In this document: positions 2,897 through 58,669 of the stretch, piece by piece
Layout of the letters: every line of letters starts with the position of its first letter
How positions within the stretch are numbered: position 1 is the stretch's first letter
Source: Octopus sinensis
Lineage: Eukaryota
NCBI RefSeq assembly: GCF_006345805.1
Contig: NC_043000.1
Span: 34,472,001-34,536,000, forward strand
Length of the DNA: 64,000 bases
Direction of reading: 5' to 3'
Program-made: the position numbers and the translations under genes
The notes under the pieces: generated by a model
Told to the model about the DNA's origin: nothing
The model's database searches: none
The model's input: the letters and a program-made list of their open reading frames with translations, nothing else

Positions 2897-3068
2897 TATA
2901 TATATATATAATATATATATATATATAATTATATATATATTATATATATCTAACATTTAGGAATGGCCTAACAGGCCATTCGTCCACCAGAAGAGCAGCC
3001 AGAACTCTAACCGCTAAGTAGTGCAATTCGGAAATAAGGAGAAAATTTAAAAACATTTACCCTATTCA

Positions 3069-3166
3069 TCTTTTATACGATGCATCGTTTCAGTGTCTTT
3101 AATGATAGACCAGCTTAATTATAAATTAAGCTAGTCTACCATAGGTCACACTTCATCAGTAAAAGA
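3069..3166 (-). ncRNA. Type I hammerhead ribozyme (family A, copy 1)
   Basis: Minus strand: TCTTTTA-CTGATGA-AGTGT...long hairpin...ACACT-GAAA-CGATGCATCG-TA-TAAAAGA. 7-bp stem I, canonical core, palindromic stem III, GUA site. Confidence 0.88.
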
Positions 3167-3527
3167 ACCTGGGAGAGACGATATACACGAGGCGACTGTA
3201 TCAATGCCTCGGAATATCTGTCTTAAAATTTTCAAGACAAACGCATTCGCGCCAAACTTATCGCACAATATAAACTGCCGATTCAATCTCAAATTAGTCA
3301 GAAAATTATCAATTAATCAATTTAGGGTAGCAAAAAATTCAGTAAAATTTATCGCTACCAGCGGCCTAGGGAAAAGAGAAAATAGTCAAAGACTAAATAT
3401 ATATATATAACATTTAGGAATGGCCTAAACAGGCCATTCGTCCACCAGAAAGAGCAGCCAGAACTCTAACCGCTAAGTAGTGCAATTCGGAAATAGGAGA
3501 AAATTTAAAAACGTTTACCCTAATTCA

Positions 3528-3626
3528 TCTTTTATACGATGCATCGTTTCAGTGTCTTTAATGATAGCAGCTTAATTAAATTAAATTAAGCTAGTCTACC
3601 ATAGGTCACACTTCATCAGTAAAAGA
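3528..3626 (-). ncRNA. Type I hammerhead ribozyme (family A, copy 2)
   Basis: Same motif as 3069-3166, 459 nt away in the adjacent tandem unit. Confidence 0.85.
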
Positions 3627-3964
3627 AACCTGGGAGAGACGGATATACACGAGGCGACTGTATCAATGCCTCGGAATATCTGTCTTAAAATTTTCAAGAC
3701 CAACGCATTCGCGCCAAACTTATCGGCACAATATAAACTGCCGATTCAATCTCAGAATTAGTCAGAAAATTATCAATTAATCAATTTAGGTAGCAAAAAA
3801 TTCAGTAAAAATATATATATATATATATATATATCACATATGTGTATATATACATATGTATATATATATATATATTATATATATATTATACCCACACACA
3901 CACATATATATATTCGTTTTTTCTTTAGTTTCAGGTCAGAGCTGTCACCATGCTGGGGCACCGC

Positions 3965-5320
3965 CGTTTTGCTACATTGTTATTACTGAGAGCCTCCTCT
4001 AATATGTGACATTTGGAGAATAAGGGAGTTTGATGTCGCTACCGTCATCTGCACCTCTTGCCACGAGGTAGGTTCATCTGGGACTTTCGACAGGAAGGGG
4101 TTCAATTTTGATTCGAAAACATCTACATCCACTTTGTGTATGTCCCTCAGGACCTTTGGGAGAATATCAAAAAGCTGTGGGCCCTGAAACCCAGGTTGTT
4201 GCAGTAACTGAGCCTGAAGCGCGATGACATTGTTCTGATCTTTGGCACTATGCATTGTCGACCCGTTCTGGAATTAGTGTAACTTTCAGTGCCAAAACTT
4301 GGCACAATTCCTTCCAGGATCTTCCAGATGTATATTACTGCATACCTCTCCCGCCTCCGCTCCAGGGTATAGTGTCTTAGCTGTTCCAGCCTTTCCCAGT
4401 AGCTGAGCTGTTGCAAAGAGACGATCTTCTTTGTGAAGCTTCGCTGGATTGCTTTTAGGTCCACTGTTAATTTTACATTGTTTGGTGACCATAGCTAGGA
4501 GCAGTAATCCAGGCGGCTGAGGACGAATGTCCTCCAGAGGACCATCATGGTTTCCTCATCTCTGGTTCTGAACCTTCTCAGGATCCAGCCAGCCAGTCGT
4601 TTGCACTTTGTCGCCATCCTGGTAATGTGCACTTGGAAAGAGGTATCATCATTCATGTCGATACCCAGGTCCCTCGCTGATTTAGGCCCTGGGATTGTAA
4701 TTCCCTGTGGACTAGTGTATCCTGTAAGTTTTATATCCAGTTTTGGAGGCTGGTAGCGCAGGGTTTGGAATTTTTCAGCATTAAAATGCATATTATTATC
4801 CTCAGCCCCTCTGTAAATTAAGTCCAACTCCTGCTGCAAGTGTGCAACATCGCTGAGGTTCTGTATTTTCCGCAAGACTTTCGTATCGTCTGCGTAGCTA
4901 GCAAGGGGGGGGGGCTATCCGGGCAGTTGAAGGCATATCTGAGAGGGCCACTATAAAAAGCAGAGGTCCCAAGACAGTGCCCTGTGGAACACCGCTCACT
5001 ATTTGTTTTCATTGAGGTGGATCCATTGGCCACTACTGCCTGACTTCTATCTTTCAAAAAGTCATGTAACCACTCTCCAAATTTTCCAGCTATGCTTAGA
5101 CCATGCAGTTTGTGGTATATCATACCATGATCCACTTTATCAAAAGCTTTTGCCAAACCAAGTTATATGTCCACATTTGAGTTGTTGAGTAACTGCCTCA
5201 ACACCCAGTCATAATGTTGTAAGAGCTGGGTCAGGCAGCTCCTACCTGGTTGAAAGCCATGCTGGGCATCACTCAGCAAGTTACTTTCTTCAAGGAATGC
5301 GATTAGTTTCCCCTCTGACT
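3965..5320 (-). mobile_element. CR1-clade LINE, RT to 3' end, frameshifted
   Basis: AKAFDKVDHG, VPQGTVLGP, YADDTK, FNAEKFQ, LSRLDYCS, SYWERLEQL...LERRRERY. Confidence 0.9.
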
Positions 5321-6049: not shown

Positions 6050-6340
6050 GAATGTTTCTGCAAAGATTACAAAAGAAAGATTACGAAGGTTCTCGAAAAC
6101 AAAAATGTTATCAAAGACACGAATGCGTGGGCTATTCTAGTGCTGAGATGCTCTATATCGCTTTTCTAGAATAGACAAAGATAACGCAACAGGAATTCAA
6201 TAATAGTAGGAAACTACTTGCAATCTACAATGGACACCATTCCAAAATTAATATCGACAACTTTAACCTATCAAGAAAGGGAAAATGCAGAAGATTGTTA
6301 AACACAAAAGACATCATTAGCGTTGCGATTTGGGGTTTGG
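6050..6340 (+). mobile_element. R4/Dong-type LINE RT thumb fragment
   Basis: KNVIKDTNAWAILVLRCS and HSKINIDNFNLSRKGKCRRL-like motifs. Confidence 0.5.
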
Positions 6341-7049
6341 AAAATAGTTTTACCAATCAACACAAACTAACTTTAACACAATTAACTTTTTAGATACCAT
6401 TTTTAAACCCTGATAAAAATAACTTTGAGCCTTAGTTAATTATTTTACAGAGACAAAGGTTCTAATCACCGACTTAACATTTTACGAAATTTGTTTCCCC
6501 AAATTAGTTGGTGTATGTCTTTATTGTCTGCAGATAAAGCTGTCTTTAAAAGTGCACGCAGTGGATTTAATGAAGGGATGCAAAACATGGCGAATATCAG
6601 AATTTGTTATCTAACTCAATCTTCAACTTATCTCTTAAAATAGACACAACAAAAGTATTTCTGAAGCAGATTTCCCACCATTTTTCAGTAATCATAAGCC
6701 TCGCAAACTCTACAGTATGAAACCAGTTAAATTTACCTACTTTGTATGCGAGGACTTCAAAGCTTGCATTTGATGTCATAACATTAAAAAGTTCGCTAAC
6801 AACAATAACCAGAATTAAATTTCTACACTTACCTGCCTCTGTACTGATCGTAGTAGCTGCCAGCTAGATATTAATTGCTTGGTGAAGCTCGCAACTTATT
6901 GCACTTAAATGCACTTGAGTAACAACTGTTCACCTCAGTCACATATTAGACTAACCACAGATTTCTTCAAAATATGAATCTACCGACATAAACACACCGA
7001 CAGAAAGAAGCTTCGCTGCGGCTAAATATATTTGACTTCTTAAAGAGAC

Positions 7050-21351: not shown

Positions 21352-22040
21352 GGTTTTAAAGCCTGGTACTTATGTTATCGGTCTCTTTTGCCGAACCACT
21401 AATTCATAAAGCGACGTAAACATACCAACATCTGCTGCCAAGCGGTGGCGACAGATAAACACTTAAAAAGACACACACGCAAATATATATAAGACGGGCT
21501 TCTTTCAGTTTCCGTTTACTAATTCCATTTGATTGGCCCGGCATTATAGTAAAAGACACTTGCCGAAGGTAGCACGCAGTGGGACTGAACGCGCGGTCAT
21601 ATGGTTGGCCAGAAAACTTCTCACCTCATGTCCACACCGTCGCCTAGAAAACTATAGGACCCTTCACGAATTTAGGTGTCATTCTTGCGTCGGGGCTATG
21701 CTAGTCTTCTCTATACCGTTCCAATGTTAGTGTTTATACTGCCATAGCAAGTATAAACTTATACATACATACACACGTACACGCGCGCGCGCACACATAC
21801 ACACATATGTATATGTATATATTACGTTTATGTATATATTTTGCCAGATACCTGATGTGAAATCGTGTGTTGAATGAACTAAACAGAACAAAAGGAAACG
21901 TGGGTGGAAAGTCATTGAAGAGGTCACATGTGTGTGACGAAAGATTTCCAGACAATGGACATAACATAAGAACAATAATAAACAAGTGGAGAACAGATAT
22001 ATAGTGCGTGTGTTTATTTGCGTATATATATATATATATC

Positions 22041-52125: not shown

Positions 52126-52192
52126 TATACAAGAATTTTTTTTCAGAATGAGATAAAAAAAACAAGATATTAGAACATTTATAAATAGAAGG

Positions 52193-52238
52193 CCTTACAG
52201 CTGTTTCCAGGATATTCATTATATCCCTTCATCAGAGA
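52193..52238 (-). ncRNA. Hammerhead motif (family D)
   Basis: Minus strand: TCT-CTGATGA-A-GGGATAT-AATGA-ATATCCT-G-GAAA-CAGCTG-TA-AGG. Palindromic stem III, short stem I. Confidence 0.68.
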
Positions 52239-52969
52239 TGGTGTGAGAAAATGGTTAAGCGATAGTTAATTTTGATAAGATACGAAATAGAGAGTGAAGT
52301 GGAGGAATGAAAATGTATGTGAGATATGCAGGGATATTGTATTTGTAGATCCGTTATTTAAGCAGAATGGTATACATATTAGATTCCAGTACCTTGTGAG
52401 TGAAATCCAATAGTATCTAAAATTGGTCATTCCAAGTATAAAGTTTGTACACAGTGCTATTGAATCAAGGGTTTTATTTAAAGTGACCTAAAAGTAGGGA
52501 ATGTATTTGTAAGGTCAAATCGAAAACAGGAAGAGAAGAATGAAGAAAAGAGGAAAAAAAGAAGGGAAGAAAAAAGAGAAGAAAAAAAAGAAAACCAGGA
52601 AGAGAGGAATAAAGAAAAGAAAGAAAAAAGAGAAAAGAAAAACAAGGAGAGAGATAATAAGGGAAAGTGTATCAGTTAGTGGTCAGTCAAGATAATTTGA
52701 AAGTAGGAATGGGGAGATGAGGTTGATAGAGAGAGAAAGGTATTAGAGTGTAAAAAGATAGAAGGAATGCGGAGGGGGTGACAGAGAGAGAGAGAGAGAG
52801 AGGTATAATCTGTAAAGGAGTGTCAGTTATGTAGTGATAGAGAATAAGTGATGGGGCAGAGAGAGGAATAGTAGTATGGAATGAAGAATTTAGGAATATA
52901 GATTAGGTGGTTGGACAGGTCAGTGCTTAGTAGTAGAAGAAAATATATATGTGAAGGTGTATAACTTAG

Positions 52970-57686: not shown

Positions 57687-57704
<18 letters not shown>

Positions 57705-57719
<15 letters not shown>

Positions 57720-57739
57720 TATGTGTGTGTGTGTGTAAG

Positions 57740-57790
<51 letters not shown>

Positions 57791-58161
57791 TGTGTGTGTG
57801 TGTGTGTGTAAGTGTGTATATATATATATATATATACATCAAAATGGAGCTGGTCCTCTGTGGATCACATCCCTACTTCTCAACATAGTCACCGTTTCTC
57901 TCAATAGCAATGTTCCACCTTCAAATGAGAGCATATATCCCTGCCAGTTGCTCAAAGAACGGTCAACAGAATTTTACGGGGCAGGGATATATGCTCTCAT
58001 TCGGAAGTGGAACATTACCATTGAGAGAAACGGTGGCAATGTTGAAAAGTAGGGATGTGATCCACAGACGACCAGCTTCATTTTGTTGTATGATACATGT
58101 TCCTATGTTGACAACTATACCTGTCCTAAACAAAATGGCATTACTTTTTGACTCACTCTCG

Positions 58162-58200
<39 letters not shown>

Positions 58201-58203
58201 AAG

Positions 58204-58268
<65 letters not shown>

Positions 58269-58620
58269 GTGTGTATATATATATATATATATACATCAAA
58301 ATGGAGCTGGTCCTCTGTGGATCACATCCCTACTTCTCAACATAGTCACCGTTTCTCTCAATAGCAATGTTCCACCTTCAAATGAGAGCATATATCCCTG
58401 CCAGTTGCTCAAAGAACGGTCAACAGAATTTTACGGGGCAGGGATATATGCTCTCATTCGGAAGTGGAACATTACCATTGAGAGAAACGGTGGCAATGTT
58501 GAAAAGTAGGGATGTGATCCACAGACGACCAGCTTCATTTTGTTGTATGATACATGTTCCTATGTTGACAACTATACCTGTCCTAAACAAAATGGCATTA
58601 CTTTTTGACTCACTCTCGTA
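57705..58620. repeat. Tandem duplication (~457-bp period) of a foldback mariner 3' end plus microsatellites
   Basis: 57834-58163 is identical by eye to 58291-58620. FYGAGIYALIRKWN...VEK. Internal inverted repeat with ~105-bp arms. Confidence 0.88.
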
Positions 58621-58669
58621 TATATATATATATATATATATATACAGACAGACAGACAGACAGACAGAC

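What the first reader, a model, noticed from the sequence alone, without database searches (positions are those of the whole stretch)
2951..3810. Head-to-tail HHR dimer predicting a 459-nt self-excised monomer
Seen: two canonical HHRs on the minus strand, 459 nt apart, each with a perfect 7-bp stem I, a stem II extended by a long hairpin (~19 bp in copy 1) and a 12-nt palindromic stem III. There is no ORF. Inference: double cleavage would release a circularisable monomer. Caveat: the copies differ mostly by 1-bp indels, a long-read error signature, so copy number and base accuracy are uncertain.
Basis: partly seen in the sequence, partly recalled or inferred. Interest (0 to 1): 0.75.

Follow-up and report, generated by a model that had tools for sequence, protein, structure and literature searches.

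The report
Hammerhead retrozyme copy in TA microsatellite
This is one 1.85-unit copy of a protein-free repeat found hundreds of times in this animal genome; each unit carries a hammerhead-ribozyme fold predicted to cut its own RNA, and the layout of the other copies suggests it is likely pasted into TA repeats by a borrowed Penelope-type retrotransposon enzyme that starts copying at two fixed sites.

Summary
The two hammerheads are real (cuts predicted after 3535 and 3076, 459 nt apart), with compensatory changes in stems I and II across sister families. The locus is one copy of a dispersed family: 335 exact hits of a 29-mer, and about 3,400-3,700 units with sister families. The usual unit is 475 nt; the window's copies are short by small deletions, likely consensus errors. 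The dimer is unlikely to be an assembly artefact: both copies share rare substitutions, and the join holds family sequence absent from the truncated first copy. All 121 family 3' ends run into (TA)n at or near two fixed sites. Of 96 classifiable head-to-head insertions, 94 pair one end at each site, and units within an insertion share one haplotype. This is a metazoan non-LTR retrozyme with Penelope-like (PLE) insertion signatures, likely copied by two-strand priming on a circular or homogeneous tandem RNA. Cleavage, circles, expression and the partner enzyme were not shown. The scan has reported the same two-site architecture several times in this genome and others. New member of a known kind.

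The parts
2951..3810 (-). Whole insertion: 1.85 head-to-tail units of the 475-nt family (unit positions about 62-475, then 1-475), single arm, 3' end at fixed site A
3410..3810 (-). Upstream unit, 5'-truncated
2951..3409 (-). Downstream unit, complete; 16 bases shorter than the family majority
3528..3626 (-). Type I hammerhead 1 (core at 3619; predicted cut after 3535; stem II extension 3561-3602)
3069..3166 (-). Type I hammerhead 2 (core at 3159; predicted cut after 3076; 19-bp stem II extension 3102-3142)
3076..3534 (-). Predicted excised monomer, 459 nt as assembled, likely 471-475 nt; circular fold z = -6.5 against 40 shuffles
2951..2981 (-). GC-rich hairpin (2961-2981) plus a short CUAAAU-type motif ending at site A, the 3' end of this insertion; inferred reverse-transcription start signal A
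3312..3359 (-). Hairpin (3326-3359) plus a similar motif ending at site B (unit position about 100), the second fixed 3' end of family copies; internal here
2897..2949 (.). (TA)n tract, 3' flank (target)
3811..3890 (.). (TA)n tract, 5' flank (target)

Best explanation
The locus is one single-armed, 5'-truncated copy of a dispersed 475-nt hammerhead repeat that is likely a non-autonomous Penelope-like retroelement (a metazoan non-LTR retrozyme): tandem transcripts are predicted to self-cleave to monomers that would be circularised, and a Penelope-type enzyme from elsewhere in the genome would likely cut a (TA)n tract and copy the RNA from two fixed internal start sites, one per DNA strand. Shown: the family, its two fixed 3' ends, the (TA)n targets, the one-A-one-B rule, one haplotype per insertion, and covarying ribozyme stems. 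Inferred: cleavage, circularisation, the identity of the enzyme, and a circular rather than long homogeneous template. At this locus only the site-A arm is present; it runs through about 1.85 units and so holds two ribozymes, which would let it release a monomer if it is transcribed.
For: Family: 178 matches among the 40 scored of 1516 candidates; 335 exact hits of a 29-mer, control 0; 3713 and 3382 hits of two motifs shared with sister families, controls 1 and 2. Ends: 121 of 121 arm 3' ends in 68 places are followed by TA-rich sequence. Of 104 head-to-head pairs in 140 places of two families, 94 are A+B, 1 A+A, 1 B+B and 8 have an end elsewhere (94 of 96 classifiable; binomial P = 6e-26 against 0.5). 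In the position-ordered subset, 32 of 34 pairs are A+B. Template: substitutions per site 0.42% within an arm, 0.42% between arms and 1.7% between loci in family 1; 0.94%, 0.96% and 1.39% in family 2. 43 of 50 A arms and 34 of 49 B arms run past the cut site. Ribozyme: 96.7% of cells paired, 7 of 33 pairs with two-sided changes, slid controls 29-44% paired; a third family keeps the fold with other letters and a different palindrome (read by eye). Literature: tandem plus inverted 5'-truncated copies, a tail at one end and (TA)n bias are PLE features; a PLE protein cuts and extends both strands from two internal start sites. The genome holds RT + GIY-YIG ORFs of 775-781 codons without stops.
Against: No cleavage, circle or transcript was observed. 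No PLE among the 40 GIY-YIG loci fetched shares recognisable sequence with the unit, and no PLE ORF directly adjoins a unit in the loci searched, so the partner is unidentified. The tail is about 100-109 nt against 30-40 bp in published PLEs. A homogeneous tandem transcript fits the haplotype data as well as a circle. In family 2, 6 of 118 5' ends lie within 3 nt of the cut against 1.7 expected (P = 0.008, uncorrected for five windows and for the surplus of short arms), which hints at some linear templates; family 1 shows 0 of 118. In the anole PLE, ribozyme mutants inserted normally in vitro. The 11 rows are related, so the 7 covarying pairs reflect few events. A few pairs are duplicates within one place (L100, L104, L105, L171), and many loci were picked by best score.
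Confidence: 0.8

Rival explanations
1. Same element and enzyme, but the template is an uncleaved or partly cleaved linear multimer transcript from a homogeneous array, not a circle; the ribozyme would mainly trim transcripts.
For: Ribozyme mutants did not affect insertion of the anole PLE in vitro, and unprocessed RNA was the main substrate. Only 1 of 9 Xenopus dimers cleaved. Long arrays exist as possible sources: arms of 5.0 and 6.7 kb, and 8.7 kb at a contig end.
Against: Only 9 of 47 position-ordered places hold two or more ribozymes in one arm, yet arms of up to 6.9 units occur in family 1. Many distinct haplotypes each form their own uniform arrays. No in-register sharing of unit-specific variants between arms was seen: 6 of 9 against 11 of 28, and 23 of 38 against 156 of 257, though that test had little power.
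Confidence: 0.3
2. The unit is the solo pseudo-LTR of an autonomous PLE not yet found, and these loci are its truncated ends.
For: PLE insertions are mostly 5'-truncated and carry hammerheads in their pLTRs. Only 150 of 5029 GIY-YIG candidates were scored and 40 loci fetched.
Against: Arrays of up to 6.9 units (family 1) and more than 13 units (family 2) have no ORF between units. No adjoining PLE ORF was found in the unit-bearing loci.
Confidence: 0.1
3. The dimer at this locus is an assembly artefact and the genome holds one unit here.
For: The locus has poor consensus: 15 deleted positions private to one copy, among the four highest of 28 multi-unit loci. The same window holds a 97%-identical 457-bp tandem duplicate of unrelated sequence.
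Against: The join carries unit positions 1-60, which the upstream copy lacks, so duplicating a single copy cannot give it. Both copies share substitutions found in only 1 of 64, 2 of 65 and 1 of 66 other loci. Tandem units are normal for the family.
Confidence: 0.07
4. The inverted arms arise by fold-back self-priming on an antisense template, as proposed for rotifer PLEs, and not by priming on both target strands.
For: PMC3846280 proposes this. Some joints here are local fold-backs (L093, L078, L256, L267).
Against: It does not predict that the two outer ends differ as A against B in 94 of 96 pairs. At most joints the two arms stop at unrelated unit positions.
Confidence: 0.1

Closest known systems
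Metazoan non-LTR retrozymes (Cervera and de la Pena 2020, PMC7229834; seen: passages and parts 2-4 of 6)
   Same: Non-coding tandem units with one type I hammerhead each, low GC, strongly self-paired monomer, dimers to long multimers, coexisting with PLEs; mussel examples.
   Different: Unit of 475 nt against about 170-400 nt there; stem II carries a 19-bp extension; inverted arms, fixed 3' ends and microsatellite targets are not discussed in the text I saw ('inverted' and 'microsatellite' 0 hits); circles were shown there, not here.
Non-LTR retrozymes as non-autonomous PLE derivatives (Li, Clavereau, Pollet 2026, 10.64898/2026.07.22.740005; seen: parts 1-3 of 5)
   Same: Their definition of an active retrozyme (two consecutive units with a full hammerhead) is met; unit lengths of 51-972 bp cover this one; co-occurrence with PLEs.
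   Different: They link retrozymes to pLTRs by sequence; no matching pLTR was found here. The parts read do not analyse insertion ends.
Endonuclease-positive Penelope-like elements (Craig et al. 2021, PMC8557442, passages; Arkhipova et al. 2013, PMC3846280, passages; Frangieh et al. 2024, PMC11167929, parts 1-2 of 4)
   Same: Partial tandems, inverted 5'-truncated copy, tail at one end only, (TA)n targets, two internal start sites, both strands extended.
   Different: No ORF; tail about 100-109 nt instead of 30-40 bp; both start sites follow a GC-rich hairpin and a similar short motif.
Dimer-acting type I hammerheads with palindromic helix III (Cervera and de la Pena 2014, PMC4209133, passages)
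   Same: Palindromic helix III that could pair between two copies.
   Different: Stem III can form 4 bp as a monomer here (1-2 bp is usual); A-U at the base of stem II in families 1 and 2; long stem II extension.

Membership tests
Type I hammerhead ribozyme | Conserved core (CUGANGA, GAAA, NUH) in type I order with three stems | tested here: met
   core invariant while position 7 varies T/A/C across subfamilies
Type I hammerhead ribozyme | Stems kept by compensatory change | tested here: met
   4 of 7 stem I pairs and 2 of 3 counted stem II pairs change on both sides; rows are related
Type I hammerhead ribozyme | G10.1-C11.1 pair typical of canonical motifs | tested here: not met
   A-U in families 1 and 2, A-C in 3 of 11 rows; G-C in family 3. 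Typical, not obligatory (recalled).
Type I hammerhead ribozyme | Self-cleavage | not testable with these tools
   needs in vitro transcription or raw RNA reads
Metazoan non-LTR retrozyme | Dispersed head-to-tail units, one type I hammerhead each | tested here: met
Metazoan non-LTR retrozyme | No coding capacity | tested here: met
   longest stop-free frame 91 codons; no PLE-like ORF in arrays
Metazoan non-LTR retrozyme | Expressed as monomeric linear and circular RNA | not testable with these tools
   only assembled contigs were offered; they cannot show circles or ends
Metazoan non-LTR retrozyme | Target-site duplication | tested here: inconclusive
   insertions sit in (TA)n, so a duplication cannot be read
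Non-autonomous Penelope-like element | Tandem plus inverted 5'-truncated layout, tail at one end, microsatellite target | tested here: met
   (family level; the window's own copy has no inverted arm)
Non-autonomous Penelope-like element | Sequence shared with the terminal repeat of an autonomous PLE in the genome | tested here: inconclusive
   no match in 40 loci fetched, out of 150 scored and 5029 candidates
Autonomous Penelope-like element | RT plus GIY-YIG ORF between pLTRs | tested here: not met

The most novel reading that the evidence does not exclude
A dimeric Penelope-type enzyme binds two look-alike signals (GC hairpin plus a CUAAAUUG-type motif) about 100 nt apart on one circular ribozyme RNA, or on two sibling monomers paired through the palindromic stem III, primes one strand of a (TA)n break at each signal and rolls round the circle. 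The genome would then record rolling-circle, two-strand target-primed reverse transcription and explain both the PLE tail and the PLE inverted repeat with a 475-nt minimal substrate.
Probability: 0.4. Interest if true: 0.65.

Novelty: new member of a known kind. Interest (0 to 1): 0.36.

Why it matters
The locus itself is an ordinary and rather poorly resolved copy of a known kind of element. The family matters as a test case. How Penelope-like elements make tandem and inverted insertions is named as open in PMC8557442, and how retrozymes are mobilised is hypothetical in PMC7229834. The near-strict pairing of one A end with one B end, one haplotype per insertion and two similar start signals give sharp predictions for a short, protein-free RNA substrate. 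I did not find the A/B pairing counted in print (searches), though the tail at only one end is stated qualitatively. Earlier scan notes describe it for this genome.

Tried and rejected
Rfam gathering scan: no hammerhead reported, only a U6 copy. My generic hammerhead pattern did not list the two motifs, because stem II is longer than its gap allowed. Expression: no RNA holder listed on record. Contigs of four runs cover family units in pieces, two of them guessed RNA at depth up to about 30 and one of unknown kind at depth about 1e5; none spans the stretch, no joints are listed and no single-copy baseline was obtained, so this says nothing about expression, circles or copy number. No reads were laid on the window's own locus, so the dimer and its deletions remain unchecked against reads. 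Partner search: no sequence link to the two RT + GIY-YIG families inspected; 20 further motif loci had no adjoining PLE ORF, the PLE-like hits in L259, L266 and L268 lying hundreds to thousands of bases away. In-register test for a heterogeneous multimer template: no signal, little power. Bacterial promoter scan: irrelevant to this genome. Paper search for an extended stem II in type I hammerheads gave one unrelated paper (listing only), which is a narrow search and no proof of absence. No supplements were read; they may hold Hydra or Neptune pLTRs, or cephalopod retrozymes, that bear on the partner and on novelty. Loci left out of counts: overlapping fetches of the same place were reduced to one; 5' ends at a locus edge and repeated junctions within a place were dropped.

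Full report
Observation. The minus strand of 2951-3810 holds two type I hammerhead motifs with cores at 3619 and 3159 and predicted cuts after 3535 and 3076, 459 nt apart. Each has a 7-bp stem I, a 5-bp stem II followed by an internal loop and a long hairpin, and a 12-nt palindrome that can form a 4-bp stem III alone or a longer helix between two copies. The two motifs fold with z = -4.2 and -6.9, and none of 200 shuffles was as stable. The base pair of stem II next to the core is A-U, whereas PMC4209133 calls G-C typical. Rfam's gathering scan missed both. No frame longer than 91 codons lies inside. The element is 1.85 units between two (TA)n tracts.

Family. The window lies in a 2.7-Gb genome; earlier scan notes call it octopus-like, which I did not test. 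The unit gave 178 matches among the 40 scored of 1516 candidates, and a 29-mer from it occurs 335 times. Other copies have a period of about 475 nt and are mostly 97-100% identical to a reference copy. A sister family of about 492 nt, 72-76% identical, is larger, and two motifs common to both occur 3713 and 3382 times. A third family appears in L252 and L262.

Is the dimer real, and is 459 right? The window's full copy lacks 16 bases against the family majority, where the median among 121 near-full units is 1 and the 95th percentile 9; it has no insertions. Fifteen deleted positions are private to one of the two copies, among the four highest of 28 multi-unit loci. That pattern fits consensus error, so the monomer is likely 471-475 nt (inference). 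The dimer itself is likely real. The join contains unit positions 1-60, absent from the truncated upstream copy, and both copies share substitutions seen in only 1 of 64, 2 of 65 and 1 of 66 other loci. It was not checked against reads.

Ribozyme conservation. On 11 natural variants from families 1 and 2, 96.7% of cells pair, 7 of 33 pairs change on both sides (4 in stem I, 2 in stem II, 1 in the extension), and sliding the partners drops pairing to 29-44%. The rows are related, so these are few events. The catalytic core is unchanged while position 7 takes three letters. Family 3 keeps stems I and II, a 12-bp extension and a different palindrome over stem III (read by eye; its minimum-energy fold did not give the hammerhead, z = -2.0). 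The long stem II extension is therefore a conserved trait; its role is unknown.

Insertion anatomy. In 68 places of family 1, all 121 arm 3' ends are followed by TA-rich sequence, and nearly all fall at site A (unit end) or site B (about 100 nt further); 50 structures are head-to-head pairs and 21 are single arms like the window's. Over 140 places of both families there are 104 pairs: 94 A+B, 1 A+A, 1 B+B, and 8 with an end elsewhere. A few are repeats within one place, and many places were chosen by best score; the position-ordered subset gives 32 A+B of 34 pairs. Both sites follow a GC-rich hairpin and a similar short motif, and the region folds with z = -8.2. Families 1 and 2 keep the B hairpin and the enclosing stem with paired changes (read by eye). 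Units within an insertion, in both arms, differ by 0.42% against 1.7% between loci in family 1; the contrast is weaker in family 2, 0.95% against 1.39%. Most arms cross the cut site (43 of 50 A arms, 34 of 49 B arms), so a linear monomer cannot be the usual template. 5' ends show no pile-up at the cut in family 1 (0 of 118 within 3 nt, 1.7 expected) and a weak one in family 2 (6 of 118, P = 0.008 uncorrected). A test for unit-specific variants shared in register between arms gave no signal and had little power.

Mechanism. Shown: fixed ends, target, pairing rule, one haplotype per insertion, conserved fold. From the literature: animal retrozymes are transcribed as multimers, self-cleave, are circularised by RtcB in vitro and are proposed to be copied by PLE enzymes (PMC7229834, passages and parts 2-4 of 6). 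PLE insertions form partial tandems with an inverted 5'-truncated copy, a tail at one end and a (TA)n bias (PMC8557442, passages; PMC3846280, passages). A purified PLE protein, predicted to be a dimer, cuts and extends both strands and starts at two internal RNA sites whose interval is the tail (PMC11167929, parts 1-2 of 4). Inferred: a PLE enzyme primes one strand at A and the other at B on one RNA or two siblings, and multi-unit arms come from a circle or a uniform multimer. The window's copy is the product of the A start only, or lost its partner arm. The genome holds RT + GIY-YIG ORFs of 775-781 codons without stops, but none of the 40 loci fetched shares sequence with the unit, so the partner is open. 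Against a needed role for cleavage: ribozyme mutants of the anole PLE inserted normally, and only 1 of 9 Xenopus dimers cleaved (preprint 10.64898/2026.07.22.740005, parts 1-3 of 5).

Comparison and verdict. It meets every sequence-level criterion of a metazoan non-LTR retrozyme and carries the PLE insertion signature; circles and cleavage could not be tested. It is not an autonomous PLE. Differences from published cases are the 475-nt unit, the long stem II extension and the 100-nt tail. I reached the A/B rule before consulting earlier notes; later look-ups showed that the scan has reported it for several families in this genome and in other genomes. These notes are unchecked and are not counted as support. 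One note's claim of over-used 5' ends 6-8 nt past the cut was not reproduced in these two families, and another's Hydra-clade partner was not tested. New member of a known kind; interest 0.36.

Noticed in passing
window 52130-52500 (-): A second, unrelated short hammerhead-like motif (core at 52235) shortly before a long (TA)n tract; member of a repeat with 3933 candidates at about 90% identity. Looks like the 3' end of a Penelope-like element (recalled resemblance); the fold is not better than shuffles, z = 0.05.
   Followed up: partly
window 3930-5318 (-): Frameshifted reverse-transcriptase-like fragment (a YADD motif in the frame 4495-4914), resembling a CR1/L2-type LINE end (recalled); no Pfam hit at E 0.01. 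The retrozyme sits in the TA tract at its 3' end.
   Followed up: partly
window 57697-58643: Tandem duplicate of period 457, 97% alike, of a fold-back, MITE-like element with its microsatellite flanks; could be a real duplication or an assembly artefact.
   Followed up: no
window 21648-21754 (-): U6 snRNA copy, 74.6 bits.
   Followed up: no
L122-L125, L129: Young two-ORF PLE family (479 and 781 codons, overlapping; RT + GIY-YIG; about 99% alike) ending in (TA)n with a short tail of about 25 nt.
   Followed up: partly
L127:6114-7000 and L122:6037, 6264-6959: Further unrelated hammerhead elements with long stem II, some in inverted arrangement.
   Followed up: no
L252:960-5281: A third-family two-armed insertion lies directly upstream of LINE-like ORFs.
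   Followed up: no
L100, L104, L105, L171: Whole two-armed structures occur twice in tandem with identical inner junctions: later duplication or assembly error.
   Followed up: no
L120:1974-4429: A family-2 and a family-1 two-armed insertion lie side by side in one TA tract.
   Followed up: partly
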